Shown: in pieces, positions 10,478 through 34,210 of the stretch
Layout: every line of letters begins with the position of its first letter
Numbering within the stretch: position 1 is the first letter of the stretch
NCBI GenBank assembly: GCA_016179965.1
Contig: JACPCF010000019.1
Coordinates: 561 to 64,560 of the forward strand
Direction: 5' to 3'
DNA length: 64,000 nt
From: Candidatus Rokuibacteriota bacterium
GTDB taxonomy: Bacteria; Methylomirabilota; Methylomirabilia; Rokubacteriales; CSP1-6
Position numbers and translations under genes: made by a program
Notes under the pieces: generated by a model
Seen by the model: the letters and a program-made list of their open reading frames with translations, nothing else
What the model was told of the DNA's origin: nothing
Database searches by the model: none

Positions 10478-11593
10478 CTATCTCGCGTCGTTCGAGCGCG
10501 GGCTTTGCCCGCGCAACCCCGGGGGGGAGGAATCGGAAGGGGGGCGGAGCCCCCCTCCGAGCGAAGACAGCTCGTGAACCATCTCCACCATCGCGATCAC
10601 GTGCTCCACGGACGTCTCGGGGAGGACCCCGTGGCCGAGGTTGAAGATGTGGCCGGGCCGGGCGGCGGCCCGATCGAGGATCGCCCGGACATGCCGCTTG
10701 ATCTCGGCGGGCTTCGCGAGCAGCACGGCCGGGTCGAGGTTCCCCTGGACCGCCACGTCGTAGCCGATGCGCTTCCAGGCGTCGGCCAGGTCCACGCGCC
10801 AGTCGAGACCGATCACGTCCCCCCCCGCCTCGCGCAGCAGCTCGAGCAGGCCCGCGGTGCCCGTGCTGAAGTGGATGACGGGAACGCCCGGCGTGAGCCC
10901 TTTGATGACGGCGCGCGTATGGGGCAGGACGAACTCGCGGTAGGCGTCGGGCGAGAGCGCCCCCACCCAGGAGTCGAAGAGCTGCACGGCCTGGGCGCCC
11001 GCGGCGATCTGGCCGTTCACGTAGCCGACGGTGACCCTGACGAGGCGCTCCATGAGGGCGTGCCACGCGGCGGGATCGTCGTGCATCAGCCGCTTCGTGT
11101 GGAGATACTCGCGGGACGCGCTGCCCTCGATCAGGTAGGAGGCCACCGTGAAGGGCGCGCCGGCGAAGCCGATCAGCGGCACTCGCGCGGCCAGCGCCTT
11201 GCGCACCGTGCGGATCGCCTCGAAGACGAAGGGCGTCGCCTCCCGGGGGTCCACGTCCGCCAGCCGCCGGAGATCCGCCGCGCCGCGCACGGGACGGTGG
11301 ATGAGGGGCCCTTCCCCCTTGGCGAACTCCAGGCCCACCCCCATGGGCTCAACCGGCAGGAGAATGTCGGCGAAGATGATCGCGGCGTCCACGCCGAGGC
11401 GCTCCACCGGCAAGAGAGTCACCTCGGCAGCCGCCTCGGGATTCTTGCAGAGCTCCAGGAAGCCGAACCGCTCGCGGAGCGCGCGGTACTCGGCCATGAA
11501 GCGCCCCGCCTGGCGCATGAGCCAGACCGGGGTGAACTCGGTGGGCTCGCGCCGGCACGCGCGGAGAAAGGGAGCGGGCGCCGCGGCGTTCAT
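10478..11593 (-). CDS. hemE: uroporphyrinogen decarboxylase
   Basis: PVWLMRQAGR motif; start MNAAAP (ATG 11591-11593). The last ~28 codons are encoded by repeat family 1 copy A. Confidence 0.85.
   Translation of the reverse strand: MNAAAPAPFLRACRREPTEFTPVWLMRQAGRFMAEYRALRERFGFLELCKNPEAAAEVTLLPVERLGVDAAIIFADILLPVEPMGVGLEFAKGEGPLIHRPVRGAADLRRLADVDPREATPFVFEAIRTVRKALAARVPLIGFAGAPFTVASYLIEGSASREYLHTKRLMHDDPAAWHALMERLVRVTVGYVNGQIAAGAQAVQLFDSWVGALSPDAYREFVLPHTRAVIKGLTPGVPVIHFSTGTAGLLELLREAGGDVIGLDWRVDLADAWKRIGYDVAVQGNLDPAVLLAKPAEIKRHVRAILDRAAARPGHIFNLGHGVLPETSVEHVIAMVEMVHELSSLGGGLRPPSDSSPPGLRGQSPRSNDAR
10491..10562 (+). repeat. repeat family 1, copy A (short form: hairpin GAGCGCGGGCTTTGCCCGCGC + GGGGGGCGGAGCCCCCCTCCGAG)
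   Basis: direct comparison with copies B to E. Confidence 0.8.
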
Positions 11594-11651
11594 GGATGAT
11601 CGAGCGTACAGGAAGCGCCGCGGATTGACAACTCTCGGCACCTGGGCGACC

Positions 11652-13334
11652 ATGGCGTCCATGCCGTTCATGGCGGGGAAGCAGGCGTTCCTGGAGCTCC
11701 TCAAGCAGGAGGGCGCGGAGGTGCTCTTCGGCAACCCGGGGACCACCGAGCTGCCGCTGATGGACGGCCTGGCGCGCGAGACGCGGATCCACTACATCCT
11801 GGCCCTCCAGGAGGCGGTGGCCATCGCCATGGCCGACGGCTACGCTCAGGCCAGCGGCAAGCTGGCCCCGGTGAACGTCCACATCTCCCCCGGCCTCGGC
11901 AACGCGATGGGGATGCTCTACGACGCCTGGAAGGCCGGCTCTCCTCTGCTCCTGACCGCGGGTCAGCACGATCAATCCTTCACCGTCACCGAGCCCGTCC
12001 TCTGGTCCGAGCTGCCGCCCGTGGCGAAGCCCTACGTGAAGTGGGCGACCGAAGTCCGCCGGCTGGAAGATCTGCCGCGCATCGTGCATCGCGCGGCGAA
12101 AGTCGCTCTGACGCCGCCGACAGGCCCCGTCTTCCTCTCCCTGCCCGTGGACGTGCTCAACGCCGAGCGCGACCTGGAGCTGGGCGAGCCCACCCGCGTG
12201 GACCCGCGGATCCGCGGGGCGCGCGAGGCGGTGGAGCGGGCGGCCGACCTCCTGACCCAGGCCAAGCGACCGCTCATCGTGGCCGGCGACGCCATAGCCC
12301 AGGGCGACGGCCACGCCGAGCTGATCGAGGTGGCCGAGTTGCTCGGCGCGCCGGTCCGCACGGAAGGGATGGCCAACCGCTGCAACTTCCCCTTCACCCA
12401 CCCGCTCTATCAGGGCGCGATCTCGCGCCTGGCCCCCGATCTGCGCGCGCTCCTCCAGCAGCACGACCTGCTCTTCTCCGTGGGCGGCGACCTCTTCACC
12501 CTGTCGCTTCCGTCGGACGTGGAGCCCATGCCCCACGGCCTGACGATCATCCATCTGGACGTGGATCCCTGGGAGGTCGGCAAGAACTACCCTGCCAAGG
12601 TGGCGATCCTCGGCGATCCGAAGGCAACGCTGCCCGAGCTGGCTGAGGCGCTGCGGAAACGCTTCGGAGGAAGCGCGCACCCCGAGGCCCAGCGCCGCAC
12701 GGAGGAAGCGGAGAAGCAACGCGCTCAGACGATCGCCGAGTTGAAGAAGCGCGCGCTGGCCGCGAGCGGCCGTCAGCCGATCGCGCCCTTGGCCCTGATC
12801 CACGCCCTCGCCGAGGGCCTGCCGCCCGACGCGGTGGTCGTGGACGAATCGATCTCCTCGGGAGGAGGCCTCCGGGAACTCCTTCGCTGCCAGGATCCCC
12901 GGAGCTTCTTCGGCCTCCGGGGCGGCGGCATCGGCTGGGGGCTCCCGGCGGCGCTCGGGGTCAAGCTCGCGCTGCCGCGCCGCCCGGTCGTGGCGCTGGT
13001 GGGAGACGGGAGCGCGATGTACACCAACCAGGCCTTCTGGACCGCCGCCCATGAGGGGCTCGGCGTGATCTTCCTGATCGTCAACAACAGGAGTTACCGG
13101 GTCCTGAAGCAGCGCGTCCACGCCCTCAAGGGCTTTTCGGCCCAGGACAACGTGTACGTGGCGATGGACCTCGACAAGCCGCTCATCGACTTCGTCGGGC
13201 TCGCCCAGTCCCTCGGCGTGCCCGGTGAGCGCGTGGAGAAGGCCGCGGACATCGGCCCGGCCCTGGCCCGCGGTCTCGCTGCCGGCGGACCGTACCTCCT
13301 CGACGTCCAGGTGGACGGGACGTTCAAGCCCTAG
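11652..13334 (+). CDS. thiamine-pyrophosphate-dependent enzyme (acetolactate synthase/benzoylformate decarboxylase family)
   Basis: TPP-binding GDGS...NN motif and N-terminal pyrimidine-binding domain; start MASMPF. Confidence 0.8.
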   Translation: MASMPFMAGKQAFLELLKQEGAEVLFGNPGTTELPLMDGLARETRIHYILALQEAVAIAMADGYAQASGKLAPVNVHISPGLGNAMGMLYDAWKAGSPLLLTAGQHDQSFTVTEPVLWSELPPVAKPYVKWATEVRRLEDLPRIVHRAAKVALTPPTGPVFLSLPVDVLNAERDLELGEPTRVDPRIRGAREAVERAADLLTQAKRPLIVAGDAIAQGDGHAELIEVAELLGAPVRTEGMANRCNFPFTHPLYQGAISRLAPDLRALLQQHDLLFSVGGDLFTLSLPSDVEPMPHGLTIIHLDVDPWEVGKNYPAKVAILGDPKATLPELAEALRKRFGGSAHPEAQRRTEEAEKQRAQTIAELKKRALAASGRQPIAPLALIHALAEGLPPDAVVVDESISSGGGLRELLRCQDPRSFFGLRGGGIGWGLPAALGVKLALPRRPVVALVGDGSAMYTNQAFWTAAHEGLGVIFLIVNNRSYRVLKQRVHALKGFSAQDNVYVAMDLDKPLIDFVGLAQSLGVPGERVEKAADIGPALARGLAAGGPYLLDVQVDGTFKP

Positions 13335-13354
13335 CCCCCCACCCGATGCCATTT

Positions 13355-13419
13355 CCTCTTCTCCTCCCCCTCGGGGGGGAGAGGATGAAGGTGAGGGGAT
13401 TATGAGTGGGGTGAGGGGG
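13355..13419 (+). repeat. repeat family 2, copy 1 (palindrome CCTCTCCCCC-TCG-GGGGGAGAGG flanked by GGTGAGGGG)
   Basis: 3' of the TPP-enzyme gene. Confidence 0.7.
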
Positions 13420-13435
13420 CGAGGAGGTTCACGCG

Positions 13436-14206
13436 GTGCCGGATCGCCTGAAGGGGAAGGTCGCCATCGTCAGCGGGGCCGGCTCGCGCGGCCCCGGAGT
13501 GGGGAACGGCAAGGCCGCCGCCGTCCTCTTCGCCCGCGAGGGCGCCCGGGTCCTCTGCGTGGACCAGTTCCTGGACCGCGCCGAGGAGACCTGCGCGCTC
13601 ATCCGCGCCGAGAATGGGAACGCCTCCACGCTCCAGGCCGACGTGACACGGGCGGCCGATTGCGAGCGGATGGTCGCGACGGCCCTCGAGCGCTACGGCC
13701 GGCTCGACGTCCTCCACAACAACGTCGGGATCGAGTCACGGAAGAACCTCATGGAGGTCACCGAGGAGGAGTGGGACCGCGTCATGGCGGTGGACCTGAA
13801 GAGCATGCTGCTCACCTGCCAGGCCGCCATCCCCCGGCTGGTCGAGGCCAGCGGGGGCTCCATCATCAACGTCTCCTCGGTGGCGGCCCTCCGCGCCCAC
13901 GGCCGTACCGCCTACTCTGCCGCCAAGGCGGGGGTGATCGGCCTGACGATCTCGCTGGCCGGGCAACTGGCGAAGGATCGGATCCGCGTCAATGCGATCG
14001 CCCCGGGCATGGTCTATACCCCGATGGTGGCGGAGGGGATGTCGGCGGAACTGCGCGAGCGCCGCAGGCTCGCCGCCTTGATCCAGGACGAGGGCACGGC
14101 CTGGGACGTGGGCTGGGCTGCGGTCTATCTGGCGAGCGACGAGTCCCGCTGGGTGACGGGCCAGGTCCTGGTCGTCGACGGCGGCGTTTCCATCACTACT
14201 CGGTGA
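13436..14206 (+). CDS. SDR family oxidoreductase
   Basis: GKVAIVSGAGSRG...YSAAK motifs; GTG start with GGAGG 9 nt upstream. Confidence 0.85.
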   Translation: MPDRLKGKVAIVSGAGSRGPGVGNGKAAAVLFAREGARVLCVDQFLDRAEETCALIRAENGNASTLQADVTRAADCERMVATALERYGRLDVLHNNVGIESRKNLMEVTEEEWDRVMAVDLKSMLLTCQAAIPRLVEASGGSIINVSSVAALRAHGRTAYSAAKAGVIGLTISLAGQLAKDRIRVNAIAPGMVYTPMVAEGMSAELRERRRLAALIQDEGTAWDVGWAAVYLASDESRWVTGQVLVVDGGVSITTR

Positions 14207-14228
14207 AACAGACGAGGGAGCCACCATC

Positions 14229-15212
14229 ATGGCGATGACGTTCGGCGTTCACGTGGGACACGTGAGCAGTCCGCTGGGGGAACTCCGCAAGCTCTGGCGC
14301 TTCGCGGATACCTCGGGCTTCGACTGGTTCTCGGTGTCGGACCACTTCCAGGAAAGCCCGCCCCAGGGGGGCGACATGGACTGCTTCGAGGCCATCTCGA
14401 CGATGACGGCGCTGGCGACGGAGACGAAGAACGTCCGGGTGGGGTGCCTGGTCTTCTGCGTCAACTACCGCCACCCGGGAGTGCTGGCCAAAGCGCTCTG
14501 CACGATCGACCACCTGTCGGGGGGCCGCGTCGAATGCGGTATCGGGGCGGGCTGGCACGAGGCCGAGTACAAGGCATTCGCAATTCCCTTCGAAAGGATC
14601 GGCGTCCGCGAGGACCAGCTGGAGGAGGCCGTTCAGGTGCTGCGGCTTCTGTTCACGCAGCGGATCGCGAGCTTCAAGGGGCAATACTTCCAACTCACCG
14701 ACGCGCGCTGCAACCCCAAGCCGCTCCAGAAGCATCTCAGGATCTGGATCGGCGGCCTCGGCGAGAAGCGGACGCTCCGCGCCGCGGCCAGGTACGCCGA
14801 CGGCTGGAACGCCCCCTACATCTCGCCGGAGGAGTTCAAGCGGAAGAGCCAGATCCTCGACGACTGGTGCCAGAAGGCGGGGCGCGATCCGGCCGAGGTT
14901 CTCCGCACGGTCAACGTCGGCTTCTACATGGGCGCGACGGAGAAGGCGGCCAGGCGTCAGGAGGAGCGGATGAAGGCCCAGTGGGGGGCGACGCTCCAGC
15001 AGCGGATCGGCGGCTTCTTCGTCGGCACTCCCCAGCAGGTGATCGACCGTGTGGCCGAGTACAAGAAAGCCGGAGCGGTCCGGCTGAACATCGGCCTCAG
15101 GTTCCCTCTCGACTGGGAGGCCCTCCACGCCTACGTCGAGGAGGTCTTGCCGGCCTTCCTGCCGAAGAAGAAGGCGACCTCTAAGAAAAAGCCGCGCGCC
15201 CGCAGCCGATGA
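14229..15212 (+). CDS. LLM-class (luciferase-like) F420/flavin-dependent oxidoreductase
   Basis: 327 aa, TIM-barrel luciferase-like monooxygenase pattern. Confidence 0.75.
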   Translation: MAMTFGVHVGHVSSPLGELRKLWRFADTSGFDWFSVSDHFQESPPQGGDMDCFEAISTMTALATETKNVRVGCLVFCVNYRHPGVLAKALCTIDHLSGGRVECGIGAGWHEAEYKAFAIPFERIGVREDQLEEAVQVLRLLFTQRIASFKGQYFQLTDARCNPKPLQKHLRIWIGGLGEKRTLRAAARYADGWNAPYISPEEFKRKSQILDDWCQKAGRDPAEVLRTVNVGFYMGATEKAARRQEERMKAQWGATLQQRIGGFFVGTPQQVIDRVAEYKKAGAVRLNIGLRFPLDWEALHAYVEEVLPAFLPKKKATSKKKPRARSR

Positions 15213-15411
15213 CGCGTCCCCGTCGGCTGCTGGCGGCCGTTCAAGCCCACTTCCCGGCTGGTGGACGCCGACGGCCGGTTCCACCGCTTCTCCGGAGAGG
15301 TGCGCGTGGACCCGAACACGCTGGATCAGGCCGTGGTGGATACGGCCATCCGACCTCCGCGGCATCCCGGCCCCCTCCGGCAGCCCCTCCTGATCTGGTA
15401 CACTTACTTCC

Positions 15412-15915: not shown

Positions 15916-17117
15916 CCGAGCCGCTGGCCGGGATCGTGGTGGCCGACCTCACGCTCAACGTCGCCGGGCCGTTCTGCACTCAGATCCTCGGGGACATGGG
16001 CGCCGACGTCATCAAGCTGGAGCGCCCCGGCAAGGGGGACGACGCCCGCGCGTGGGCGCCGCCCTTCTGGGGGACGGAGAGCGCCACCTTCATGAGCCTG
16101 AACCGCAACAAGCGGAGCCTCGCGCTGGACCTCAAGGCCCCCGACGGCCGCGCGATCGCCCGGCGACTGATCGAGAAGGCCACCGTGTTCGTTCAGAGCC
16201 TCGCAGCCGGCGTGGTGGAGGCCCTGGGCCTGGGGTGGGACGACGTCCATGCGCTGAACCCGCGGCTCATCTACTGCTCGGTGACCGCCTTCGGCGCTCG
16301 CGGCCCCCTCAGCGCACTCCCGGGCTACGACGCGCTGATGCAGGCCTACGGCGGGCTGATGTCGGTCAACGGCCATCCGGGCCAGCCGCCGGCGCGGATC
16401 GGCGCCTCGATCGTGGACATGGGGACCGGGATGTGGGCCGCCCTCGGAATCCTGGGGGCGCTCAAGGAGCGCGACCGAACGGGCCTGGGCTCTCACGTCA
16501 CGACCTCGCTCTTCGACACGGCGCTCATGTGGAGCTCCTACCACCTGATGAATTACTTCGCCTCGGGCGAGGCGCCCCAGCCCCAGGGCTCGGGCACCCA
16601 GATGATCGTCCCCTACGAGGCCTTCCCGACGGCGGACGGCTATGTCATGCTCGCCGCGGGGAGCGACGGCCTCTTCGCCGGGATGTGCGAGGCACTGGGA
16701 ATCCCGGCCACCGCCACGGATCCCCGCTTCGTGGACAACCCCGCCCGCGTGAGGAACCGGAAGGCGCTTTACGACCTGATCGCCGGGGTCACCCAGAAGG
16801 ACAAGACGGGCCACTGGGTGGAGCGCCTCCGCGCGGCGGGGGTGCCGTGCGCGCCCATCCTCTCCGTGGACCAGGTGGCGGCGGAGCCCCAGACCGAGGC
16901 GAGCGGGATGCTCCTCCGGGCTCCCCACCCTCGCGTCCCCGATTATCGAAGCGTCGCGCTCCCCCTCGAATGGGCCGGCCGGCGCCACGGCGTCACGCGG
17001 GTGCCGCCGCTCCTCGGCGAGCACACCGCGGAAATCCTGGGCAGGCTCGGCTACAGCGGCGCCGACATCGAACGGCTCGCCGCCGGGCGCGTCGTCCAGC
17101 TGAGGAACGGCCGATGA
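15912..17117 (+). CDS. CaiB/BaiF family CoA-transferase (family III)
   Basis: 401 aa, characteristic N-terminal VVADLTLNVAGPFCTQILGDMGADVIK. Confidence 0.85.
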   Translation: MTEPLAGIVVADLTLNVAGPFCTQILGDMGADVIKLERPGKGDDARAWAPPFWGTESATFMSLNRNKRSLALDLKAPDGRAIARRLIEKATVFVQSLAAGVVEALGLGWDDVHALNPRLIYCSVTAFGARGPLSALPGYDALMQAYGGLMSVNGHPGQPPARIGASIVDMGTGMWAALGILGALKERDRTGLGSHVTTSLFDTALMWSSYHLMNYFASGEAPQPQGSGTQMIVPYEAFPTADGYVMLAAGSDGLFAGMCEALGIPATATDPRFVDNPARVRNRKALYDLIAGVTQKDKTGHWVERLRAAGVPCAPILSVDQVAAEPQTEASGMLLRAPHPRVPDYRSVALPLEWAGRRHGVTRVPPLLGEHTAEILGRLGYSGADIERLAAGRVVQLRNGR

Positions 17118-17153
17118 CGGGACTACACGCGTTCTTGAAGAATCTCGACGCCG

Positions 17154-17264
17154 TTCGAGCGCGGGCTTTGCCCGCGCACCCCCCGCGGGGAGGTGTCGGA
17201 AGGGGCGGGAACCCGGGCATCCACGCCGAAGGCGTGGGGGGGCCTGGGTGGCCCCCCTCCGAGG
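17154..17264 (+). repeat. repeat family 1, copy B (long form, 111 bp, three hairpin modules, ends CTCCGAGG before the ATG)
   Basis: about 90% identical to copy C. Confidence 0.85.
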
Positions 17265-17265
17265 T

Positions 17266-18066
17266 ATGACCGAGGCGCGGCAGTACAAGCACCTGAACGT
17301 GACGCGGAGCCCTGACGGCTTCGTGGTGACAGTTGAGCTCAACCGCCCCGAAGTTCTCAACGCCATGAACACGGCCATGGGGGAGGACCTGCTGGCCTGC
17401 TTCGAGGCGCTTCACTGGGACAAGACCGTGCGCGCCGTGGTCCTGGCCGGCGCGGGGGAGAAGGCGTTCTGCGTCGGCGGCGACCTCAAGGAGCGCGAGG
17501 GGATGACCGACGAGGGGTGGCGCGCCCAGCACGAGATCTACGAGACGATGGCCTTCCGCCTCCTCCGCTGCCCGGTGCCGGTCATCGCCGCCGTGGAGGG
17601 GTTTGCCTTCGGGGGCGGGCTGGAGCTGGCGATCCTCTCCGACTTCATCGTCGCCGGCGAGGGCGCCGTCTTTGCCGTTCCCGAGATCACCCGCGGCATC
17701 TTCCCGGGGATCGGCGGGACCCAGCTCCTCCCCCGGATCATCGGGGCGCCGCTTGCGAAAGAACTGATTTTCACCGGCCGCAGGATGAACGCCCAGGAGG
17801 CCAAGGCGGTGGGGCTGGTGAATCACCTGGTCCCGGCGGGCCAGGCGCGGACCAAGGCGCTGGAGATCGCGGCCACGATCGCCGAGAATGGGCCCATCGC
17901 CGTGCGCCAGGCGAAGAAGGCGATCGCCTGGGGAGCGGAGACCGACCTCGAGACAGGGATGATCCTGGCGATCGAGGCCTACAACAATACGGTCAGCACG
18001 GAGGACCGCTTGGAGGGCGTGCGCGCCTTCAACGAGAAACGCAAGCCGCGCTTCCGGGGGAAATAA
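17266..18066 (+). CDS. enoyl-CoA hydratase/isomerase family protein
   Basis: crotonase-fold motifs AFCVGGDLKE...AAVEGFAFGGG; ATG immediately after the repeat-B CTCCGAGG. Confidence 0.8.
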   Translation: MTEARQYKHLNVTRSPDGFVVTVELNRPEVLNAMNTAMGEDLLACFEALHWDKTVRAVVLAGAGEKAFCVGGDLKEREGMTDEGWRAQHEIYETMAFRLLRCPVPVIAAVEGFAFGGGLELAILSDFIVAGEGAVFAVPEITRGIFPGIGGTQLLPRIIGAPLAKELIFTGRRMNAQEAKAVGLVNHLVPAGQARTKALEIAATIAENGPIAVRQAKKAIAWGAETDLETGMILAIEAYNNTVSTEDRLEGVRAFNEKRKPRFRGK

Positions 18067-18160
18067 CCCCCCTCACCCTACTCATGATCCCCTCACCTTC
18101 ATCCTCTCCCCCCGAGGGGGAGAGGGCAGGGTGAGGGGGGAGAGGAGAAGAGGTGAGGGG
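18066..18160 (-). repeat. repeat family 2, copy 2 (inverted orientation, extended)
   Basis: its plus strand is near-identical to the reverse complement of copy 1 over about 55 nt. Confidence 0.7.
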
Positions 18161-18180
18161 CGTTGGGGTGGGAGTCACCC

Positions 18181-19352: not shown

Positions 19353-19425
19353 CTCTCACCGCTTCCCCTCTCCCCCTCACCCTGCCCTCTCCCCCTCGGG
19401 GGGGAGACGACGAAGGTGAGGGGAT
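19353..19425 (+). repeat. repeat family 2, copy 3
   Basis: CCTCTCCCCCTCGGGGGGGAGACGACGAAGGTGAGGGGATT, 3' of the acyl-CoA dehydrogenase gene. Confidence 0.7.
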
Positions 19426-19488
19426 TCTTCTGAAACGGATCAAGAGCGAAGCCCAGCGGCTCATGCCTAAGGGACCGCAAAAGCCCCA

Positions 19489-20436
19489 ATGAAACTCCCG
19501 AGGCGCGTGACGATCACAGAGGTGGGGACGCGGGACGGGTTCCAGATCGAGCCTGACTTCATCCCCACCGACCTGAAGGTCGAAGTGGTCAATCGTCTCT
19601 CGGCCACGGGCATGCCCCGGATCGAGGTCACCTCCTTCGTTTCCCCGAAGGCCGTCCCCCAGCTGAAGGACGCCGAGGAGGTGATGGCCCGGATCACCCG
19701 GCGCCCCGGCGCGACCTACGCGGCCCTCGTCCCCAACGACAAGGGCGCCTCCCGCGCCGTGGAGGCCGGCGTGGACGAGATCCACACCGTGGTCTCAGCG
19801 AGCGAGAGCCACAACCTCGCCAACGTGAACATGACCATCGCTGAGTCACTTCAGAAGCTCAGCGCGGTGGCCGAGGTCTGCCGACGGGCCGGGAAGCCGG
19901 TGGTCGCGGGAATCTCCACCTCCTTCGGCTGCCCGTTCGAGGGCGAGGTCCCACTCCAGAACCTGGAATCCGTCGTGGCGCGCCTGGTGGACCTCGGCGC
20001 GAAAGGGATCGCGCTGGCAGACACCACCGGCATGGCCAACCCCGGGCAGGTGGCACGCACCCTCGAGTACCTGATGCCCAAATTCCCGGGGATCGAGTGG
20101 ACGCTGCACACCCACGATACCCGCGCCATGGCGATCCCCAACATCCTGGCGGCGATGGAGTGCGGCGTCACCCGCTTCGACGCGTCGATCGGGGGCCTCG
20201 GTGGCTGCCCCTTCGCCCCCGGCGCCTCGGGGAACGTCTGCACCGAGGATCTCGTCCACTGCCTCCACGCCATGGGAATCGAGACCGGCATCAACCTGGA
20301 CGCGCTCATCGACACGTCGAAGCGGGTCCAGGAGATTGTCGGGCGCCCGCTCCCCGGCCAGATCATCAAGGCGGGCAAGGCCGACCGCCGTTACCCCCTC
20401 CCCGACTCCGTCCACCGCCGCCTGGCCGCGGAATGA
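19489..20436 (+). CDS. hydroxymethylglutaryl-CoA lyase family protein
   Basis: TIM-barrel HMGL-like motifs EVGTRDGFQ...HTHDTRAMAIPN. Confidence 0.8.
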   Translation: MKLPRRVTITEVGTRDGFQIEPDFIPTDLKVEVVNRLSATGMPRIEVTSFVSPKAVPQLKDAEEVMARITRRPGATYAALVPNDKGASRAVEAGVDEIHTVVSASESHNLANVNMTIAESLQKLSAVAEVCRRAGKPVVAGISTSFGCPFEGEVPLQNLESVVARLVDLGAKGIALADTTGMANPGQVARTLEYLMPKFPGIEWTLHTHDTRAMAIPNILAAMECGVTRFDASIGGLGGCPFAPGASGNVCTEDLVHCLHAMGIETGINLDALIDTSKRVQEIVGRPLPGQIIKAGKADRRYPLPDSVHRRLAAE

Positions 20437-20465
20437 AACGTCCACGGTACCAATTCGCAGTTTCC

Positions 20466-20573
20466 CGAGCGCGGGCTTTGCCCGCGCAATCTCCGGGGGG
20501 AGGTATCGGAAGGGGCGGGTACCCGGGCTTCCACGCCGTAGGCGTGGGGGGGCCTGGGTGGCCCCCCTCCGAG
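20466..20573 (+). repeat. repeat family 1, copy C (long form)
   Basis: about 90% identical to copy B; ends CTCCGAGG 5 nt before the ATG at 20579. Confidence 0.85.
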
Positions 20574-20578
20574 GAAAA

Positions 20579-21532
20579 ATGAAGTTCGCGCCGCCCCGCG
20601 AGCCGCTCGCCAAACTCCCGACCCCGCTCCTCGATCTCGCGCGGCTCAGTACCGTCCTGGGCGGGCCGCGCCTTTTGATCAAGCGGGACGACCTCGGCGG
20701 CTTCGCTCTGGGAGGCAACAAGGTCCGGAAGCTCGAGTTCTTTCTCGCCGACGCCCGGAACGCGGGCGCGGACGTGCTCATCACGTGCGGCGGGGTGCAG
20801 TCCAACCACTGCCGGGTGACGGCAGCGGCCGCGGCCCGGGCGGGCATGCGGTGCGTGCTGGTGTTGAGCGGGACGAAGCCGGCGCGGTTCAGCGGCAACC
20901 TCCTCCTGAACCAGCTCTTCGGCGCCGAACTGGTCTTCGTCGAAACGCGCGCCGAGCGGGGGCCGCGCATGGAGGCCCTGGCCGGGGAATTCAAGGCGAA
21001 GGAGCTTCGCCCGTACGTGATTCCCCTCGGCGGCTCCACCCCCCTGGGCGCCTACGCCTACGTGGAGGCGGCGCGCGAATTCGCCCTCCAGTGCCGTCCC
21101 ATGGGCCTCACGGTCTCGACCATCGTCCACGCCTCCTCCTCGGGCGGGACCCAGGCCGGCCTCGTGGTGGGGTGCCTGGCCGAGGAGCTGCCGACCCGCG
21201 TAGTCGGGATCAGCGCCGACGAGAAGAAGGACGATCTCGGCCGGATGGTGAACGACATCGCCCAGGCGCTCGCCGAGCAATCGGGATTGCCCGCGCCGCG
21301 AAAGGACCAGATCGAGGTCCTGGACGACTATGTGGGAGAGGGGTACGGCGTCCCGACTGCCGCCTCGGACGAAGCCATTCGACTGTTCGCCCGGCTAGAA
21401 GGGATCGTCCTGGACTCCACCTACACCGCCAAGGCCGCGGCGGGGCTGATCGACCTGATCCGCCGAGGGCGGTTCACGCGCGACGACACCGTGTGCTTCT
21501 GGCACACGGGAGGGAACGGGGGGCTGGCATGA
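20579..21532 (+). CDS. PLP-dependent ACC deaminase/D-cysteine desulfhydrase family protein
   Basis: LIKRDDLGGFALGGNKVRKLEF pattern; ATG preceded by the repeat-C CTCCGAGG. Confidence 0.75.
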   Translation: MKFAPPREPLAKLPTPLLDLARLSTVLGGPRLLIKRDDLGGFALGGNKVRKLEFFLADARNAGADVLITCGGVQSNHCRVTAAAAARAGMRCVLVLSGTKPARFSGNLLLNQLFGAELVFVETRAERGPRMEALAGEFKAKELRPYVIPLGGSTPLGAYAYVEAAREFALQCRPMGLTVSTIVHASSSGGTQAGLVVGCLAEELPTRVVGISADEKKDDLGRMVNDIAQALAEQSGLPAPRKDQIEVLDDYVGEGYGVPTAASDEAIRLFARLEGIVLDSTYTAKAAAGLIDLIRRGRFTRDDTVCFWHTGGNGGLA

Positions 21533-23547: not shown

Positions 23548-24696
23548 ATGCCGGGACGGCCGTTCCTCCAGATTCCCGGGCCCACGCTGGTGCCGGAGCG
23601 CGTCACGCGGGCCATTTCGCAGTCCATCATCGACCACCGCGGCCCGAAGTTCGCCGCGCTCGTCCACGAGTGCCTGGCGGGCCTGAAGGGAGTCTTTCAG
23701 ACGGTAAGGGGGGAGATCGTGATCTATCCCGGCTCGGGCACGGGCGCGTGGGAGGCCTGCCTGGTCAACACGCTCTCCCCGGGCGATCGCGTGCTGGCGT
23801 GCGTGAACGGGCACTTCTCCGCGGGCTTCGCCAAGACGGCGGCGGCCTATGGGATCGAGGTGGACCGCCTGGAGCTCCCCTACGGCGCCGGCGTCCCGGC
23901 GGACCAAGTCGAAGAACGGCTGAGGGCGGACAAAACCCACCAGCTTCGCGCCGTCCTCGCCGTCCACAACGAAACCTCCACGGGCGTGACCTCCAACGTG
24001 GCGGCGACCCGCGCGGCGCTCGACCGGGCGCGCCACCCGGCCCTCCTCCTCGTGGACGTGGTGTCTTCCCTCGCGTCCATCGACTTCCGCGTGGACGAGT
24101 GGGGGGTGGACGTGGCGCTGACGGGGCCCCAGAAGGGGCTCATGCTCCCGCCGGGGCTGGCAATCCTCGCGGTGAGCGACAAGGCGTTCCACGCCAGCGA
24201 GAAGGCCAAGTGCCCGCGCGCCTACTGGGACTGGGCCCCCGTCCTCGAGCGCAACAAGCGCGGCGAGTTCCCCTACCTCCGCGAGAGCCTCGCCATCCTG
24301 AACGAGGAGGGGCTCCCCAACGTCTTCAAGCGTCACGCGCGGCTGGCCGAAGCGTGCCGGCGCGCGGTGCAGGCGCTCGGCCTCCGGATCCTCTGCCAGA
24401 ACCCCGCCGAGTACTCGAATACGCTCACCGCGGTGGTGATGCCGACGGGCTTCGATTCCGACGCCTACATCGCCCACGCCTGGAAGACGCTCGACCTCTC
24501 CCTGGGCGTGGGGCTCAGCGAGGTGAAGGGGAAGATTTTCCGGATAGGTCACCTGGGGAGCCTGAACGAGCTCGACCTGCTCGGCGGGCTTGCCGGAGTG
24601 GAGCTGACGCTCAAGAGTTTCGGCGTGAACCTCCGCCTGGGCGCGGGGCTCGCCGCCGCCCAACAGTACTTGCTGGAAACCCCTTCGTCTCAGTAG
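23548..24696 (+). CDS. class V aminotransferase (alanine/serine--glyoxylate aminotransferase family)
   Basis: 382 aa, PLP-lysine region LTGPQKGLM. Confidence 0.8.
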   Translation: MPGRPFLQIPGPTLVPERVTRAISQSIIDHRGPKFAALVHECLAGLKGVFQTVRGEIVIYPGSGTGAWEACLVNTLSPGDRVLACVNGHFSAGFAKTAAAYGIEVDRLELPYGAGVPADQVEERLRADKTHQLRAVLAVHNETSTGVTSNVAATRAALDRARHPALLLVDVVSSLASIDFRVDEWGVDVALTGPQKGLMLPPGLAILAVSDKAFHASEKAKCPRAYWDWAPVLERNKRGEFPYLRESLAILNEEGLPNVFKRHARLAEACRRAVQALGLRILCQNPAEYSNTLTAVVMPTGFDSDAYIAHAWKTLDLSLGVGLSEVKGKIFRIGHLGSLNELDLLGGLAGVELTLKSFGVNLRLGAGLAAAQQYLLETPSSQ

Positions 24697-24698
24697 TT

Positions 24699-24767
24699 GT
24701 TCGAGCGACGGCTTTGCCGTCGCAACCTTGGGGGAGGCTTCGGAGGGGGCCGTCGAGGCCCCCTCCG
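24699..24767 (+). repeat. repeat family 1, copy D (divergent short form, hairpin GAGCGACGGCTTTGCCGTCGC)
   Basis: same module architecture with compensatory stem changes. Confidence 0.7.
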
Positions 24768-24772
24768 ATGAT

Positions 24773-25168
24773 CTACTGGAGCCAGCCGGCCTTCAAGAAC
24801 GACTGGTTCTGCTGCCCATTCACGACGATGATCACCGGCCCCGTGTACTGCCCCAGGGCCCGCTTCGCCGCCGCGTATTTCCGGTACTCGAAGACGTTAC
24901 CGAAGTAAAACCCGTCCCGGCAGAACGCCCAGATCGGGCCTCGATCGAGTGCCGGCGAGCAGGGGACCAGCTTCAAAGTTTCCAGCGCGGCGGGATTCGG
25001 GCGGAGCTGGCCGTTCACCAAAACGCCGATCTCCCGGCCCTTGGCGTTCAACACTCTCGCCTGCGAGTCCTCCTGAACGGTGGTGTCCGCCATCGCGATC
25101 ACTCCGGCCGAAAGCAGGCTCAAGAGCACGAGCCCCACCCCGATCAGCGCAACACTTCGCTTCGTCAT
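24773..25168 (-). CDS. secreted hypothetical protein
   Basis: 131 aa with N-terminal signal peptide. Confidence 0.45.
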   Translation of the reverse strand: MTKRSVALIGVGLVLLSLLSAGVIAMADTTVQEDSQARVLNAKGREIGVLVNGQLRPNPAALETLKLVPCSPALDRGPIWAFCRDGFYFGNVFEYRKYAAAKRALGQYTGPVIIVVNGQQNQSFLKAGWLQ

Positions 25169-28924: not shown

Positions 28925-28940
28925 TGGCACGTCTGGTGCA
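28925..28940 (+). promoter_or_regulatory. candidate sigma-54 promoter (TGGCAC-N5-GTGCA)
   Basis: one mismatch to the -24/-12 consensus; 48 nt upstream of the DUF4124 gene start. Confidence 0.35.
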
Positions 28941-28988
28941 AACTCCGGGGGTTGCATGGCCAGGACGGCCGTGGGAAGGAGGCGTTCC

Positions 28989-30650: not shown

Positions 30651-30794
30651 GCCCCTTTCACTTACTCCGCCCCCCCCCGCCCGGCGCACGCCGCGGCCCC
30701 CTTTCACTTGTGAGTGAGTTGTTGTAAGGTGGGGGCGGTCTTCTCGTGCCTGAACCCCACGACACTGCCCGGACGACCAAGGGAGGGTAAGAGG

Positions 30795-32309
30795 ATGAAG
30801 CGCTGGCGGCTGTTTCTGGTTCTCTTCCTCGCGACGCTACTGATCCCCCTCGGGGCGGCGGCCCAGAAGGACACCCTCGTCGTGGCGCTCGTCTCACACG
30901 CGCCGACTATCGACCCCCACTTCCACTTCGAGCGGGTGGGGATCCTGGTCAACATCAACATGTTCGACTCGCTGCTGCACAAGAACAAGCGGCTCGAGTA
31001 CGAGCCCTCGCTCGCCACCTCCTGGAAGGCGCTCAACGACACCACCTGGGAGTTCAAGCTCCGCAAGGGCGTGAAGTTCCACAACGGCGAGGTGATGACG
31101 GCGGAGGACGTGAAGTTCTCCTTCGACCGGGTCCTGGACCCCGCCAAGAAGTCACCCCAGTATGGGAACATCCGGGCCATCAAGGAGGTCAGGATCGTGG
31201 ACCCGGAGACGATCCACCTCATCACCGACAGGCCGTTCCCGCTCCTCCTCGAGCGGATGGTCTTCTTCCCCATCGTCCCCAAGAAGCACGTCGAGAAGGT
31301 CGGTGATCAGGTATTCGGGATCTCCCAGCCCGTCGGAACCGGGCCGTGGAAGTTCGTCGAGTGGAAGCGCGACCAGCACATCAAGCTGGAGGCCTTCGAC
31401 GGGCACTGGCGGGGCCGGCCGGCGTTCAAGCACCTGATCATCCGCGCCGTTCCAGAGGTATCCACCCAGGTGGCGGAGCTCAAGACCGGAGGAGTGGACC
31501 TCATCCGGAACGTCTCGTCCGACCTCGTCCCCGACCTGAAGGCACACCCCCAGACCTACGTGAGCACCGCCCCGATCCTCCGGACCCACTACATCGAGTT
31601 CGATATGCGGCACCCGCCGTTCGACAAGAAGCTGGTTCGCCAGGCCGCCAACTACGCCGTGGACAAGCAGACGATCATTCAGAAACTCATGGCCGGGCTC
31701 GGGCGTCAGGTGGCGACGACCGTCCACCCCGCCGCCTTCGGTCATGACCCGTCCGTGACGCCGTACCCGTACGACCCGAAGAAGGCCAGGGAGCTCCTCG
31801 CCCAGGCCGGCTACCCCAACGGCGTGGACGTGACGATCCACAGCGCCTTCGTCGAGTTCCGCCCGGTCTTCGAAGCCATCTGCCAAATGCTCACCGAGGT
31901 GGGCATCCGCGCCACACCCAAGCCCTGGGACCCGGGTCCGGCGTATAACAAGTTCCTCCAGGGAGAAGGGAAGGCCACCCACGGCTACTACGGCAGCTGG
32001 GGCTACTACTCGGTCTTCGACGCCGACGCCATCCTCCACCCCCTCTACCACACCGAGCCGGGCGGCTGGATCGGCAAGTGGTACACGCGGATCGAGGGGC
32101 TGGACGGGATGATCGACGAGGCCCGCTCCACCGTAGACCAGGCCAAGCGCAAGCGGATCTACGCCCAGATTCAGCGCTATATCAAGGAGGAGGCGCCCAA
32201 CATCTTCCTCTTCCACCAGTTCGACACGCTCGGCGTCTCCAAGAAGGTGGAGTACGAGGCCCGCGGCGACGAGTGGCTCTGGCTCTTCGACGCCAAGCCC
32301 AAGAGGTAA
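30795..32309 (+). CDS. ABC transporter substrate-binding protein, family 5 (peptide/nickel, DppA/OppA-like)
   Basis: signal peptide; GGGAGGG Shine-Dalgarno upstream. Confidence 0.8.
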   Translation: MKRWRLFLVLFLATLLIPLGAAAQKDTLVVALVSHAPTIDPHFHFERVGILVNINMFDSLLHKNKRLEYEPSLATSWKALNDTTWEFKLRKGVKFHNGEVMTAEDVKFSFDRVLDPAKKSPQYGNIRAIKEVRIVDPETIHLITDRPFPLLLERMVFFPIVPKKHVEKVGDQVFGISQPVGTGPWKFVEWKRDQHIKLEAFDGHWRGRPAFKHLIIRAVPEVSTQVAELKTGGVDLIRNVSSDLVPDLKAHPQTYVSTAPILRTHYIEFDMRHPPFDKKLVRQAANYAVDKQTIIQKLMAGLGRQVATTVHPAAFGHDPSVTPYPYDPKKARELLAQAGYPNGVDVTIHSAFVEFRPVFEAICQMLTEVGIRATPKPWDPGPAYNKFLQGEGKATHGYYGSWGYYSVFDADAILHPLYHTEPGGWIGKWYTRIEGLDGMIDEARSTVDQAKRKRIYAQIQRYIKEEAPNIFLFHQFDTLGVSKKVEYEARGDEWLWLFDAKPKR

Positions 32310-32345
32310 AGGGAGCAGTCTCGCGGGCCTGAGCAGGAAGGGAGG

Positions 32346-33260
32346 ATGACCACTCTCCTCCTTCGCCGCGCCATCCGCGTCCTGGTCGTCTGCGTCGGGG
32401 TCTCCCTCATCACGTTCGGGATCCTTCAGCTGAGCGGAGACCCCGTCGCCCTCATGATGCCCGAGGCGCCGGAGGCCGACCGCGCGAAGCTGCGCGAGGC
32501 GATGGGGTTCAACGACCCGGTGGCGCTTCAGTTCGTTCGGTTCGTCGGCAACTCGATCCGCGGCGAATTCGGCAAGTCGTTCTACTACCGGGCTCCCGCG
32601 CTGGATCTGGTGCTGGAGCGGATGCCCACGACGCTGACCCTCACCGTCCTCGCCCTGGGGCTCGCCGTGCTGGTCTCTATCCCGGCGGGGATCTACAGCG
32701 CCGTCTATCGCTACTCCCTGCTGGATCAGATCGTCACGGTGGTCGTCTTCCTCGGCCAATCCATGCCGGTCTTCTGGACGGGGATCATGCTAATGCTCCT
32801 CTTCGCCGTCCAGTGGCGGCTCCTGCCGGTCTCGGGATGGGAGGGGTGGCAGTTCATGATCCTGCCGGCCGTGACGCTGGGAACCTTCCAGGCCCCGCTC
32901 CTCCTCAGGATCGTCCGCTCCAGCATGCTGGAGGTGCTGGGGCTCGACTACGTGAGGACCGCCCGGTCCAAGGGTGTCTCCGAGTGGATCGTCATCTGCC
33001 GCCACGCCTTGGTCAACGCCGCCCTCCCTGTCGTCACCGTCACGGGGCTCCAGTTCGGGATCCTGCTGGGCGGGGCCGTCATCACCGAGACCGTCTTCGC
33101 CGTCCCCGGCGTCGGGCGGCTGATCGTCCGGGCGATCCTGCAGCTCGACTTCCCCGTGGTCCAGGCCGGCGTCTTCCTCCTGGCCATGATCGTGGTCACG
33201 GTGAACTTCGTCGTGGACGTGCTGTATGCCTACCTGAACCCCCAGATCCGCGTGCGCTAA
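32346..33260 (+). CDS. ABC transporter permease (DppB-like)
   Basis: 304 aa, multiple TM helices, EAA-loop region. Confidence 0.8.
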   Translation: MTTLLLRRAIRVLVVCVGVSLITFGILQLSGDPVALMMPEAPEADRAKLREAMGFNDPVALQFVRFVGNSIRGEFGKSFYYRAPALDLVLERMPTTLTLTVLALGLAVLVSIPAGIYSAVYRYSLLDQIVTVVVFLGQSMPVFWTGIMLMLLFAVQWRLLPVSGWEGWQFMILPAVTLGTFQAPLLLRIVRSSMLEVLGLDYVRTARSKGVSEWIVICRHALVNAALPVVTVTGLQFGILLGGAVITETVFAVPGVGRLIVRAILQLDFPVVQAGVFLLAMIVVTVNFVVDVLYAYLNPQIRVR

Positions 33261-33262
33261 GA

Positions 33263-34171
33263 ATGGACGCCCAGACTCTCGCGCAGCCGGCTCCGGCGAC
33301 CGTGGAGGTCGGACGGGCCGCCGCGAGGTCGCGCGTCTACCGGAAGCTCGTCCGTCACCCGATGACGATCGTCGGGGGGCTCATCCTGCTCGTCGTCTTC
33401 GGGTCGGCCGTCCTCGCCCCCCTGGTGGCTCCCCACGATCCGGCCAAGCAGAGCCTGATCCGCCGCTTCACGCCGCCCTACTGGGCCAAGGGCGGCGACG
33501 TCCGCTTTGCCCTCGGGACCGATCAGGTCGGCCGCGACATCCTGAGCCGGATTCTCCACGGGGCGCGCATCTCGCTCCTGGTCGGCGTGTGCGCTGTTAC
33601 CGTGAGCCTCGTGGTCGGCGTCACGCTGGGGCTCTTCAGCGGCTTCCTCGGCGGGTGGGTGGACACGGTCGTGATGACCGTGGTGGATGTGACCCTCTCC
33701 TTCCCCCAGCTCCTGCTCGCGCTGGCGTTCGTGGCCGTGCTGGGGCCCGGGCTCGGGAACATCATCTTGGTGCTGGGGCTGACGGGCTGGGAGCGCTACG
33801 CCCGGGTTGTCCGGGCAGAAGTCCTGGCGCTCCGCGAGAAGGATTTCGTCGAGGCCGCGCGGGCGGTCGGGGCGGGCCCCCTTCGGATGCTCTCGCGTCA
33901 CCTCCTCCCCAACACCTTCTCGTCCATCATCGTGCTGTCAACGCTCCAGGTCGCCCAGGCGATCCTTCAGGAGGCCGCGCTCTCGTTCCTGGGACTGGGC
34001 ACGGGCTCGGCCTACCCGACCTGGGGGCAGATGATCGCGCTCGGGCGGGATTTCGTGACCGTCGCCTGGTGGCTGCCGACCTTCCCCGGGCTGGCGATCC
34101 TCCTCACCGTGCTCGCCATCAACCTGGTCGGCGACCGGCTCCGCGACGCCCTCGACCCACGCGCGACCTGA
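33263..34171 (+). CDS. ABC transporter permease (DppC-like)
   Basis: 302 aa membrane protein directly after the DppB-like gene; no ATPase genes follow. Confidence 0.8.
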   Translation: MDAQTLAQPAPATVEVGRAAARSRVYRKLVRHPMTIVGGLILLVVFGSAVLAPLVAPHDPAKQSLIRRFTPPYWAKGGDVRFALGTDQVGRDILSRILHGARISLLVGVCAVTVSLVVGVTLGLFSGFLGGWVDTVVMTVVDVTLSFPQLLLALAFVAVLGPGLGNIILVLGLTGWERYARVVRAEVLALREKDFVEAARAVGAGPLRMLSRHLLPNTFSSIIVLSTLQVAQAILQEAALSFLGLGTGSAYPTWGQMIALGRDFVTVAWWLPTFPGLAILLTVLAINLVGDRLRDALDPRAT

Positions 34172-34177
34172 GACCGG

Positions 34178-34210
34178 ATCGCGGAAGGGGGGCGCTAGCC
34201 CCCCTCCGAG
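34178..34210 (+). repeat. repeat family 1, copy E (terminal hairpin module only: GGAAGGGGGGCGCTAGCCCCCCTCCGAGG)
   Basis: matches the 3' module of copy A. Confidence 0.55.

What the first reader, a model, noticed from the sequence alone, without database searches (positions are those of the whole stretch)
10491..34210. New modular palindromic repeat family (5 copies) that supplies ribosome-binding sites and C-terminal codons to flanking genes
Copies at 10491, 17154, 20466, 24699 and 34178 are all in the same orientation. Each is built from hairpin modules: GAGCGCGGGCTTTGCCCGCGC, an optional CACGCCGWAGGCGTG, and a terminal GGGGGGCC...GGCCCCCCTCCGAGG. Copy D keeps the first stem through paired changes (GCGACGGC/GCCGTCGC), so the structure rather than the sequence is conserved; this suggests an RNA- or DNA-structure element of the REP/MITE kind. 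Every copy sits at a gene 3' end. In copies B and C the terminal CTCCGAGG lies 1-5 nt upstream of the ATG of the next gene (enoyl-CoA hydratase at 17266, DcyD-like at 20579) and acts as its apparent Shine-Dalgarno. In copies A and E the element is read through as the last codons of hemE and of the M20 peptidase, which ends with the SEGG residues.
Basis: seen in the sequence. Interest (0 to 1): 0.7.

Follow-up and report, generated by a model that had tools for sequence, protein, structure and literature searches.

The report
Mobile hairpin repeat bridging neighbouring genes
This is a real, apparently undescribed family of about 75-nt three-hairpin mobile repeats, found throughout Rokubacteria genomes, that wedges itself between tightly packed genes and is often read through by the ribosome as a short bridging reading frame or as a protein tail.

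Summary
The window carries four full copies (10488-10564, 17151-17266, 20461-20576, 24697-24772) and one solo terminal hairpin (34182-34209), all on the + strand.

The family is widespread. A pattern scan returned at least 117 loci, almost all from Rokubacteria/Methylomirabilota MAGs. No Rfam family matches and I found no paper describing it.

Both main hairpins keep pairing through compensatory changes. In H1, 111 of 112 unconstrained positions are complementary. Across 118 copies, 95% of cells pair, against about 50% in slid controls.

It behaves as mobile DNA. Orthologous sites are empty in about 35 relatives, where the flanking genes overlap. There is no strand bias relative to transcription (36 vs 44). 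Tandem arrays occur, and some copies carry 20-85-nt flanking duplications.

The "Shine-Dalgarno donor" idea is weak: GAGG lies 1 nt from the ATG in copy B. Instead, copies B and C lie inside short bridging ORFs (17114-17269, 20433-20582). Each starts on the upstream stop (ATGA) and ends on the downstream start (ATGA). Eight of 34 co-directional forward copies do this, in one preferred frame, as MIRUs do in mycobacteria.

In reverse orientation, upstream genes read into the element: hemE gains about 30 residues, and the M20 peptidase stops inside the hairpin loop.

The transposition mechanism is unknown.

The parts
10488..10564 (+). Copy A, full element (H3 type I). H1 is 10496-10514 and H3 is 10533-10560. 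It lies antisense between hemE and hemH, which are both on the minus strand.
   Evidence: CM hit of 80.2 bits.
10478..10567 (-). Element-encoded C-terminal tail of hemE (about 30 residues, ...SSLGGGLRPPSDSSPPGLRGQSPRSNDAR*). The stop TAG is at 10480..10478, 16 nt before the hemH ATG (10461..10459).
   Evidence: Translation. The Pfam URO-D match ends at residue 341 of 371. Minus-strand sequence.
17151..17266 (+). Copy B, full element with the long H3. H1 is 17159-17177. The outer H3 stem is 17196-17205 paired with 17252-17262. The nested 45-nt hairpin module is 17206-17250.
   Evidence: The orthologous copy in Rokubacteria CSP1-6 (L034) lacks the nested module.
17114..17269 (+). Bridging ORF of 51 codons through copy B. 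Its ATG overlaps the TGA of the CoA-transferase gene (ATGA at 17114-17117). Its TGA overlaps the ATG of the enoyl-CoA hydratase gene (ATGA at 17266-17269).
   Evidence: The orthologous junction is empty, with the two genes overlapping, in about 35 related loci.
20461..20576 (+). Copy C, full element with the long H3. H1 is 20469-20487. The nested module is 20516-20560.
20433..20582 (+). Bridging ORF of 49 codons through copy C, in the same element frame as in B. Its ATG overlaps the TGA of the HMGL-like gene (20433-20436). Its TGA overlaps the ATG of the PALP-family gene (20579-20582).
24697..24772 (+). Copy D, full element (H3 type II). H1 is 24705-24723, with compensated stem GCGACGGC/GCCGTCGC. 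H3 is 24740-24768. It lies between convergent genes: stop TAG at 24694-24696, and reverse stop at 24773-24775, 4 nt after TCCGA.
   Evidence: CM hit of 90.7 bits. A Logan contig (L002) carries the same site with an extra insertion in the H3 tip.
34182..34209 (+). Copy E, solo terminal hairpin (H3 type I only). The stop codon of the M20 peptidase (TAG, 34197..34195, minus strand) lies in its loop, and the protein ends SSEGG*.
   Evidence: (20.6 bits, E = 0.008). The same SEGG* arrangement is seen in L009 and L064.

Best explanation
This is a non-autonomous, REP/MITE-like mobile DNA element family specific to Rokubacteria (GTDB Methylomirabilota).

**Anatomy.** The conserved unit is about 70-80 nt, TTCGAGCG...CCTCCGA(GG). 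It has three parts:
- H1, a stem of 8 bp with a TTT loop.
- H2, a weak hairpin that pairs a pyrimidine tract with GGAGG.
- H3, a strong terminal hairpin of 12 bp. Its tip tolerates nested insertions.

**Where it lands.** It inserts into the very short or overlapping junctions between genes. The H3 end sits 0-8 nt from a start codon (forward orientation) or from a stop codon (reverse orientation).

**Why insertions are tolerated.** The element has no stop codon in any frame, so it can be translated.
- Forward orientation inside operons: a short ORF starts on the upstream stop (ATGA), runs through the element in one preferred frame, and ends on the downstream start (ATGA). This would restore the translational coupling that the insertion broke.
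- Reverse orientation: the upstream gene either stops just before H3, or reads into or through the element and gains a tail.

**Shown here:** family membership, conservation of the hairpins, presence/absence at orthologous sites, the geometry at gene boundaries, and the in-phase bridging ORFs.

**Inferred, not shown:** that the hairpins serve transposition at the DNA level, that the bridging ORFs are actually translated and couple the genes, and the nature of the mobilising enzyme.
For: **Abundance and taxon restriction**
- At least 117 loci, nearly all from Rokubacteria/Methylomirabilota MAGs.
- 149 copies in 870 kb of those loci.

**Mobility**
- The CoA-transferase|ECH junction that holds copy B is empty in about 35 orthologous loci. 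There the two genes overlap by 4 or 17 nt.
- The neighbouring ECH|ACAD junction is empty in most relatives (TAG-AGCC-ATG). It is filled by a reverse-oriented copy in L123 and L127, and by a solo H3 in L122.
- Tandem arrays occur in L029, L040, L041 and L092.
- Clear flanking direct duplications of 20-85 nt occur in 8 of 119 copies, against 1 of 589 controls (p = 4e-6). The right repeat always starts 3-8 nt after TCCGA.

**No strand bias**
- 36 forward vs 44 reverse copies between co-directional genes (p = 0.43).

**Hairpins conserved**
- H1 is complementary at 111 of 112 unconstrained positions, with 6 pair types.
- 95% of cells pair, against 88.4% in shuffles and about 50% in slid controls. 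There are 128 compensatory cells against 44 expected, reached by 0 of 500 shuffles.

**Boundary geometry**
- A reverse stop codon lies 0-8 nt after H3 in 46 of 72 copies.
- A real start codon (L3, Ndk, UvrC, ABC ATPases) lies -1 to 8 nt after H3 in 28 of 49 copies.

**Bridging ORFs**
- Complete in 8 of 34 forward co-directional copies, including B and C.
- ATGA at the upstream stop in 10 of 34, against 1 of 65 in the other classes (p = 7e-5).
- The stop overlapping the downstream start falls in element frame 0 in 13 of 17 cases (p = 3e-4).
- The two ATGA ends are in phase in 9 of 11 cases (p = 0.0014).
- The nested module in B adds 13 codons to the ORF relative to L034, so it keeps the frame.

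**Read-through tails in reverse copies**
- hemE, about 7 other full read-throughs, and 3 SEGG* endings.
Against: - No transposase was found. The ORFs between three inverted pairs are ordinary genes, and no systematic search was possible.
- There are no convincing terminal inverted repeats, and no fixed-length target-site duplication.
- The 22-47-nt "leader" between the upstream stop and the core is not conserved between copies. It is also not detectably a decayed duplicate of the downstream gene (0.127 vs 0.122, reached by 67 of 200 permutations). The true extent of the inserted DNA is therefore unexplained.
- Open frames are common in 70% GC DNA, so openness alone is weak evidence. Only the phase and ATGA statistics support translation.
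- Gene calls in the loci come from a crude GC3-based caller.
- Some copies are orthologous and so not independent (B and L034; L019 and L083; D, L001 and L002).
- There is no expression or ribosome-profiling evidence.
Confidence: 0.7

Rival explanations
1. It is a cis-acting structured RNA, such as a terminator, a 3' mRNA stabiliser or a regulatory leader. On this view its hairpins are conserved by selection at the RNA level and its copies are inherited vertically with their genes.
For: - The folds are strong (z = -2.5 to -7).
- There is extensive covariation.
- Variable-length extensions occur at the H3 tip, as in many structured RNAs.
- Some copies are conserved at orthologous positions between species (B and L034; L019 and L083).
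- G-U pairs outnumber A-C mismatches on the + strand.
Against: - There is no orientation bias relative to transcription (36 vs 44). Copy A is antisense to its operon.
- Orthologous sites are empty in most relatives.
- Tandem arrays and flanking duplications occur.
- Many copies lie inside translated frames, where ribosomes would melt the hairpins.
- No U-tract follows the hairpins.
- No Rfam family matches.
Confidence: 0.15
2. The terminal CTCCGAGG supplies the Shine-Dalgarno sequence of the downstream gene. A refined variant is that the conserved GGAGG just 5' of H3 is brought next to the start codon when H3 folds, giving a split SD.
For: - GAGG lies 4 nt from the ATG in C, and similar spacings occur in other type I copies.
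- GGAGG is more than 90% conserved, 1-2 nt before H3.
- Start codons cluster 3-8 nt after H3. That would give an effective spacing of 4-10 nt if H3 is folded. This step is my own inference.
Against: - In B and in 7 other copies GAGG is only 1 nt from the ATG.
- Type II copies end TCCGAT/A/C, without GAGG, yet still abut real starts.
- GGAGG is equally conserved in reverse-oriented and convergent copies, where it cannot serve a start codon.
- The frame-specific ATGA overlaps point to coupling instead.
Confidence: 0.12
3. It is a local duplication, a low-complexity G/C-rich coincidence, or an assembly artefact, with no family behind it.
For: All five window copies lie within 24 kb and in one orientation.
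Against: - Zero matches are expected by chance.
- There are hundreds of copies in independent MAGs from many studies.
- The flanks of the copies are unrelated to each other.
Confidence: 0.01

Closest known systems
MIRUs (mycobacterial interspersed repetitive units)
   Same: - Both are short repeats in operon junctions and appear to be mobile.
- Both insert at start codons, so that an ORF inside the repeat is coupled to the downstream gene with a 4-nt overlap. This is stated for MIRUs in the review PMC12548453.
- Here, 13 of 28 forward copies have a frame-0 TGA overlapping the downstream ATG, and 8 also start on the upstream stop.
- Tandem arrays occur in both.
   Different: - The phylum is unrelated and no sequence relationship is known.
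- The Rokubacteria element is built from three GC-rich hairpins with compensatory conservation.
- It occurs equally often in the reverse orientation, where no bridging ORF exists.
- It is mostly single-copy per site, not a VNTR.
REP / BIME elements (repetitive extragenic palindromes) and REPINs
   Same: - Both are high-copy, GC-rich, imperfect palindromes.
- Both lie between genes, mostly after 3' ends, in either orientation, and sometimes in clusters.
- In both, stems co-vary by subfamily.
- From my own knowledge: REPs within about 15 nt of a stop codon can stall ribosomes. The 0-8-nt spacing seen here would put H3 in that range.
   Different: - There is no GT[AG]G tetranucleotide next to the stem.
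- The unit has three hairpins and is about twice the size of a REP.
- No RAYT gene was found.
- Copies are frequently inside reading frames, whereas REPs are extragenic by definition.
- Long flanking duplications occur in some copies.
RPEs (Rickettsia palindromic elements)
   Same: Both are palindromic repeats that are free of stop codons and often end up in frame inside protein-coding genes, adding peptide segments (review PMC10969869). The hemE tail, about 7 other read-through tails and the SEGG* endings are of this kind.
   Different: - RPEs are about 150 bp, AT-rich, and inserted internally in genes.
- Here the element only affects gene ends. The tails use several frames, which looks accidental rather than structured.
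Bacterial MITEs (Correia/NEMIS, ERIC, RUP, BOX)
   Same: - They are small, non-autonomous and abundant.
- They fold into hairpins.
- They alter expression of neighbours.
- Nested and modular variants occur.
   Different: - No clear terminal inverted repeats (only about TCGAG vs CTCGGA).
- No fixed-length target-site duplication.
- No parent IS has been identified.

Membership tests
REP (RAYT-associated repetitive extragenic palindromes) | Short GC-rich imperfect palindrome, present in many copies, located outside genes. | tested here: inconclusive
   It is palindromic and high-copy. However, many copies lie inside ORFs, and the unit has three hairpins over about 75 nt.
REP (RAYT-associated repetitive extragenic palindromes) | Conserved GT[AG]G tetranucleotide directly 5' of the stem. 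| tested here: not met
   The conserved flanks are TTCGA-GCGC... and ...TCCGA-GG (alignments A2 and A3). There is no GTAG or GTGG.
REP (RAYT-associated repetitive extragenic palindromes) | A RAYT (Y1 HUH transposase) gene flanked by inverted copies in the same genome. | not tested
   Only three inverted pairs were inspected, and they enclose ordinary genes (dienelactone hydrolase, an Fe-S protein). Whole genomes were not available.
MITE | Terminal inverted repeats. | tested here: inconclusive
   The ends TTCGAGCGCGGGC and GCCCCCCTCCGAGG share only about 8 of 12 positions when one is reverse-complemented. This was read from the sequences, without a formal test.
MITE | Target-site duplication of fixed length. 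| tested here: not met
   Flanking repeats range from 4-8 nt (ATGAC, AATGAA, ACATGAG, GTTTGAGG) to 20-85 nt, and most copies show none.
MIRU-like coupling repeat | Sits in operon junctions and carries an ORF whose stop overlaps the downstream start, and whose start overlaps the upstream stop. | tested here: met
   Met in 8 of 34 forward co-directional copies, including B and C. The frame and phase excess is significant. It does not apply to reverse-oriented copies.
MIRU-like coupling repeat | Sequence homology to mycobacterial MIRUs. | not tested
   No MIRU sequence was compared. The resemblance is functional only.
Any Rfam RNA family | A covariance-model match at or near the gathering score. 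| tested here: not met
   The window at gathering threshold gives only tRNA-Asp. An E-value search of three loci that hold copies gives nothing at the element.

The most novel reading that the evidence does not exclude
The element may be an independently evolved "self-neutralising" mobile repeat. Its hairpins would be kept free of stop codons, and its length and frame tuned, so that it can land in overlapping start/stop junctions of operons and hand the ribosome on through a built-in bridging ORF. It may also spread by an unusual mechanism: one precise end (H3, 3-8 nt from the junction), one ragged end, and variable target duplications of 4-85 nt. That pattern fits neither a DDE transposase nor a RAYT.
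Probability: 0.3. Interest if true: 0.7.

Novelty: new variant of a known kind. Interest (0 to 1): 0.55.

Why it matters
Rokubacteria are an uncultured, soil-dominant phylum with large genomes. A phylum-wide repeat at roughly one copy per 16-100 kb affects several things:
- **Gene calling.** It produces spurious C-terminal tails, missed small ORFs and wrongly placed starts.
- **Assembly and binning.**
- **Operon expression.**

It would also be a second, independent example, after MIRUs, of a mobile repeat that preserves translational coupling. That offers a natural test bed for how ribosomes re-initiate across strongly structured RNA. The asymmetric insertion geometry hints at a mobilisation mechanism that has not been characterised.

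Tried and rejected
- **Rfam.** Searches at gathering and E-value thresholds gave nothing at the element.
- **Literature.** Searches combining Rokubacteria with REP, MITE, palindromic or hairpin repeats found no description.
- **RAYT or transposase.** I looked for one between inverted pairs of copies and found only ordinary genes.
- **A general long target-site duplication.** I tested the idea that the leader is the decayed duplicate of the downstream gene's 5' end. It is not supported (only a weak overall signal).
- **A fixed short TSD.** Exact flanking repeats are barely above controls, except for a long tail.
- **The stop codon next to H3 as part of the element.** Stop usage there (TAG 19, TGA 15, TAA 12) is close to background.
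- **Copy E as a degenerate full copy.** The apparent H1 remnant is the native DPRAT C-terminus of the permease. I treat E as a solo H3.
- **The nested CACGCCGWAGGCGTG module as an independent repeat.** It occurs only inside H3.
- **RNAalifold on the MAFFT alignment.** It mis-registered H3, because the two subtypes differ by a bulged A. I replaced it with a covariance-model-based alignment.


Full report
**Is it there?**

All five sites are present on the + strand. The 21-nt first hairpin occurs exactly at 10494, 17157 and 20467, where none is expected by chance. Copy D has the same hairpin with two compensated positions (GCGACGGC/GCCGTCGC).

A covariance model built from 97 family members and run without filters over the window finds four full copies: 10488-10564, 17151-17266, 20461-20576 and 24697-24772. 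It also finds one isolated terminal hairpin at 34182-34208, and nothing else. Copy E is therefore a solo hairpin, not a full copy.

**Anatomy**

The conserved unit runs from TTCGAGCG to CCTCCGA(GG). It contains three parts:
- H1, an 8-bp stem with a TTT loop.
- H2, a short weak hairpin in which a pyrimidine tract (CTCC, CCTT or CTTCC) pairs with a nearly invariant GGAGG.
- H3, a strong 12-bp terminal hairpin, after 1-2 nt.

H3 comes in two subtypes:
- Type I: TCGGA-A-GGGGGGC / GCCCCCC-TCCGA, with a loop of about GNA.
- Type II: TCGGAGGGGGCC / GGCCCCCTCCGA, with loop GTCGA.

The H3 tip tolerates insertions. B and C carry a 45-nt nested hairpin, and other loci carry different ones. That nested module is found only inside H3.

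Every copy folds better than shuffles on either strand (z from -2.5 to -7.1).

**Distribution**

One protein of the window is identical to one in a Rokubacteria MAG (GCA_016188015.1).

I scanned species-representative genomes with a pattern that left two H1 pair positions free. Nearly all are Candidatus Rokubacteria / Rokuibacteriota / Methylomirabilota MAGs from many independent studies.

An nhmmer profile finds 149 copies in the 870 kb held, about 30 beyond the seeds. A sample of 686 kb chosen through a neighbouring gene, not through the element, holds only 7 copies. Density therefore depends on lineage, from about 1 per 16 kb in this window to about 1 per 100 kb.

Rfam has no match. I found no paper describing the family.

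**Structure conservation**

At the two H1 positions left unconstrained in the scan, 111 of 112 copies are complementary. Six pair combinations are used.

On a model-based alignment of 118 copies:
- 95% of pair cells are standard pairs, against 88.4% in shuffles and about 50% when partners are slid.
- 128 cells carry changes on both sides, against 44 expected. None of 500 shuffles reaches this.

Two caveats apply. Most of these cells come from a few subfamily-level switches. And covariation cannot tell an RNA hairpin from a DNA hairpin.

**Mobile or inherited?**

The junction that holds copy B, between the family III CoA-transferase and the enoyl-CoA hydratase (ECH), is occupied only in the window and in Rokubacteria CSP1-6 (L034). 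L034 lacks the nested module. In about 35 other orthologous loci the two genes overlap by 4 nt (GTGA) or 17 nt, with nothing between them.

The next junction, between the ECH and the acyl-CoA dehydrogenase (ACAD), is TAG-AGCC-ATG in close relatives. It holds a reverse-oriented full copy in L123 and L127 and a solo H3 in L122. In the window it holds a different palindromic repeat.

Tandem arrays of two or three copies exist. The orientation of copies between co-directional genes is unbiased (36 forward, 44 reverse, p = 0.43). Copy A itself is antisense to the hemE-hemH operon.

These facts fit a mobile DNA element. They do not fit a strand-specific RNA signal.

**Geometry at gene boundaries**

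I used a crude GC3-based gene caller, so these numbers are approximate. The H3 end lies within 0-8 nt of a gene boundary:
- A reverse stop codon in 46 of 72 cases.
- A start codon in 28 of 49 cases. These have recognisable N-termini of L3, Ndk, UvrC and ABC ATPases.

The H1 side is separated from the next gene by anything from 1 to 290 nt. The 3-7 nt after TCCGA-GG are strongly AT-rich, up to 87% A+T in a roughly 70% GC genome.

**Flanking duplications**

Eight of 119 copies, about six independent sites, are flanked by clear direct duplications of 20-85 nt of the gene junction. Controls give 1 of 589 (p = 4e-6). The right repeat always starts 3-8 nt after TCCGA. The left repeat ends at the upstream stop codon.

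Shorter shared strings surround B (ATGAC) and C (AATGAA).

I tested the idea that the 22-47-nt "leader" between the upstream stop and the core is a decayed duplicate. It was not supported. Its origin is unexplained.

**What the element does to its neighbours**

The Shine-Dalgarno reading is weak:
- In B and seven other copies GAGG is 1 nt from the ATG.
- Type II copies lack GAGG yet still abut real starts.

What B and C share is a short ORF. In B it is 17114-17269 (51 codons), and in C it is 20433-20582 (49 codons). In both, the ATG overlaps the upstream TGA and the TGA overlaps the downstream ATG. Both use the same element frame (...CGA GCG ... TCC GAG ...).

Family-wide:
- 8 of 34 forward co-directional copies have this complete arrangement.
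- ATGA at the upstream stop occurs in 10 of 34, against 1 of 65 in other contexts (p = 7e-5).
- The stop that overlaps the downstream start is in frame 0 in 13 of 17 cases (p = 3e-4).
- When both ends are of the NTGA type they are in phase in 9 of 11 cases (p = 0.0014).
- The nested module of B adds exactly 13 codons to the ORF relative to L034.

The core has no stop codon in frame 0 in any of 127 copies, and almost none in the other frames.

I infer that insertions into coupled or overlapping gene pairs survive when a bridging ORF passes the ribosome on. [quoted passage not shown]

**Reverse orientation**

Here the upstream gene usually stops just before H3. In about eight copies it reads through the whole element.

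hemE is one of these. Its URO-D domain ends at residue 341 of 371. The remaining 30 residues are element-encoded. The new stop lies 16 nt before the hemH start.

Three copies, including E, place the stop in the H3 loop, so the protein ends SEGG*. The tails use several frames, which looks accidental. This resembles the in-frame behaviour of Rickettsia palindromic elements (PMC10969869).

**Comparison and verdict**

The element works like a REP/MITE-type repeat with MIRU-like coupling ORFs, but it is not a member of any of those families:
- It has no GT[AG]G box.
- No RAYT was found; only three inverted pairs were checked.
- It has no clear terminal inverted repeats.
- It has no fixed target duplication.
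- It has no known sequence relation to MIRUs.

I rate it a new variant of a known kind. It is of moderate interest, mainly for annotation of this phylum, for translational coupling, and for the unexplained asymmetric insertion geometry.

Noticed in passing
window 13364-13401, 18067-18162, 19386-19426; also L128, L136, L140, L171 at the ECH|ACAD junction: A second, unrelated palindromic repeat family (CCCTCTCCCC-NNNN-GGGGAGAGGG, followed by GGGTGAGGGG). It fills other short intergenic junctions, including the ECH|ACAD junction of the window. There are 7 matches to its core against 1.4 expected.
   Followed up: partly
L127 about 4800-4860, and L144 and L154 at the ECH|ACAD junction: A third small palindrome family (CAACATGGC-NNN-GCCATGTTG) inserted at the same junction in other lineages. 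This junction is a hot spot for several repeat families.
   Followed up: no
L019 6846-6924 vs L083 916-995; also L038 and L123: Orthologous copies differ by an inversion of the H3 tip (GCC-GTCGA-GGC vs GCC-TCGAC-GGC). This is what a hairpin-tip flip at the DNA level would produce.
   Followed up: no
L064 3132-3225 and 6748-6806: Two copies lie on a contig assigned to a Candidatus Limnocylindria (Chloroflexota) MAG. This could be mis-binning or horizontal transfer. L028 (Extensimonas) is a chance match to the pattern and has no H3.
   Followed up: no
DASYUM (SMAG_U4595) loci L006, L043, L046, L069, L073: In some lineages a further 20-45 nt upstream of the core is conserved between copies (...AATCGCCGAC-GT-TGGTGKTCCGCTCCGAGCG; in AR9-like MAGs ...GCCTGTCGSAGTAACCGSC). 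The 5' boundary of the element is therefore lineage-specific.
   Followed up: partly
window 52200-59280: Several 50-110-nt direct repeats at 65-80% identity, spaced about 812-849 and about 4217 nt apart. They look like paralogous coding segments (tandem related genes), not like the hairpin element.
   Followed up: no
L079 and L090, directly after the element: Some copies abut the 3' end of a reverse-strand tRNA gene (TGGCGGAGGGG...GGATTTGAACCC), and another tRNA gene lies upstream.
   Followed up: no
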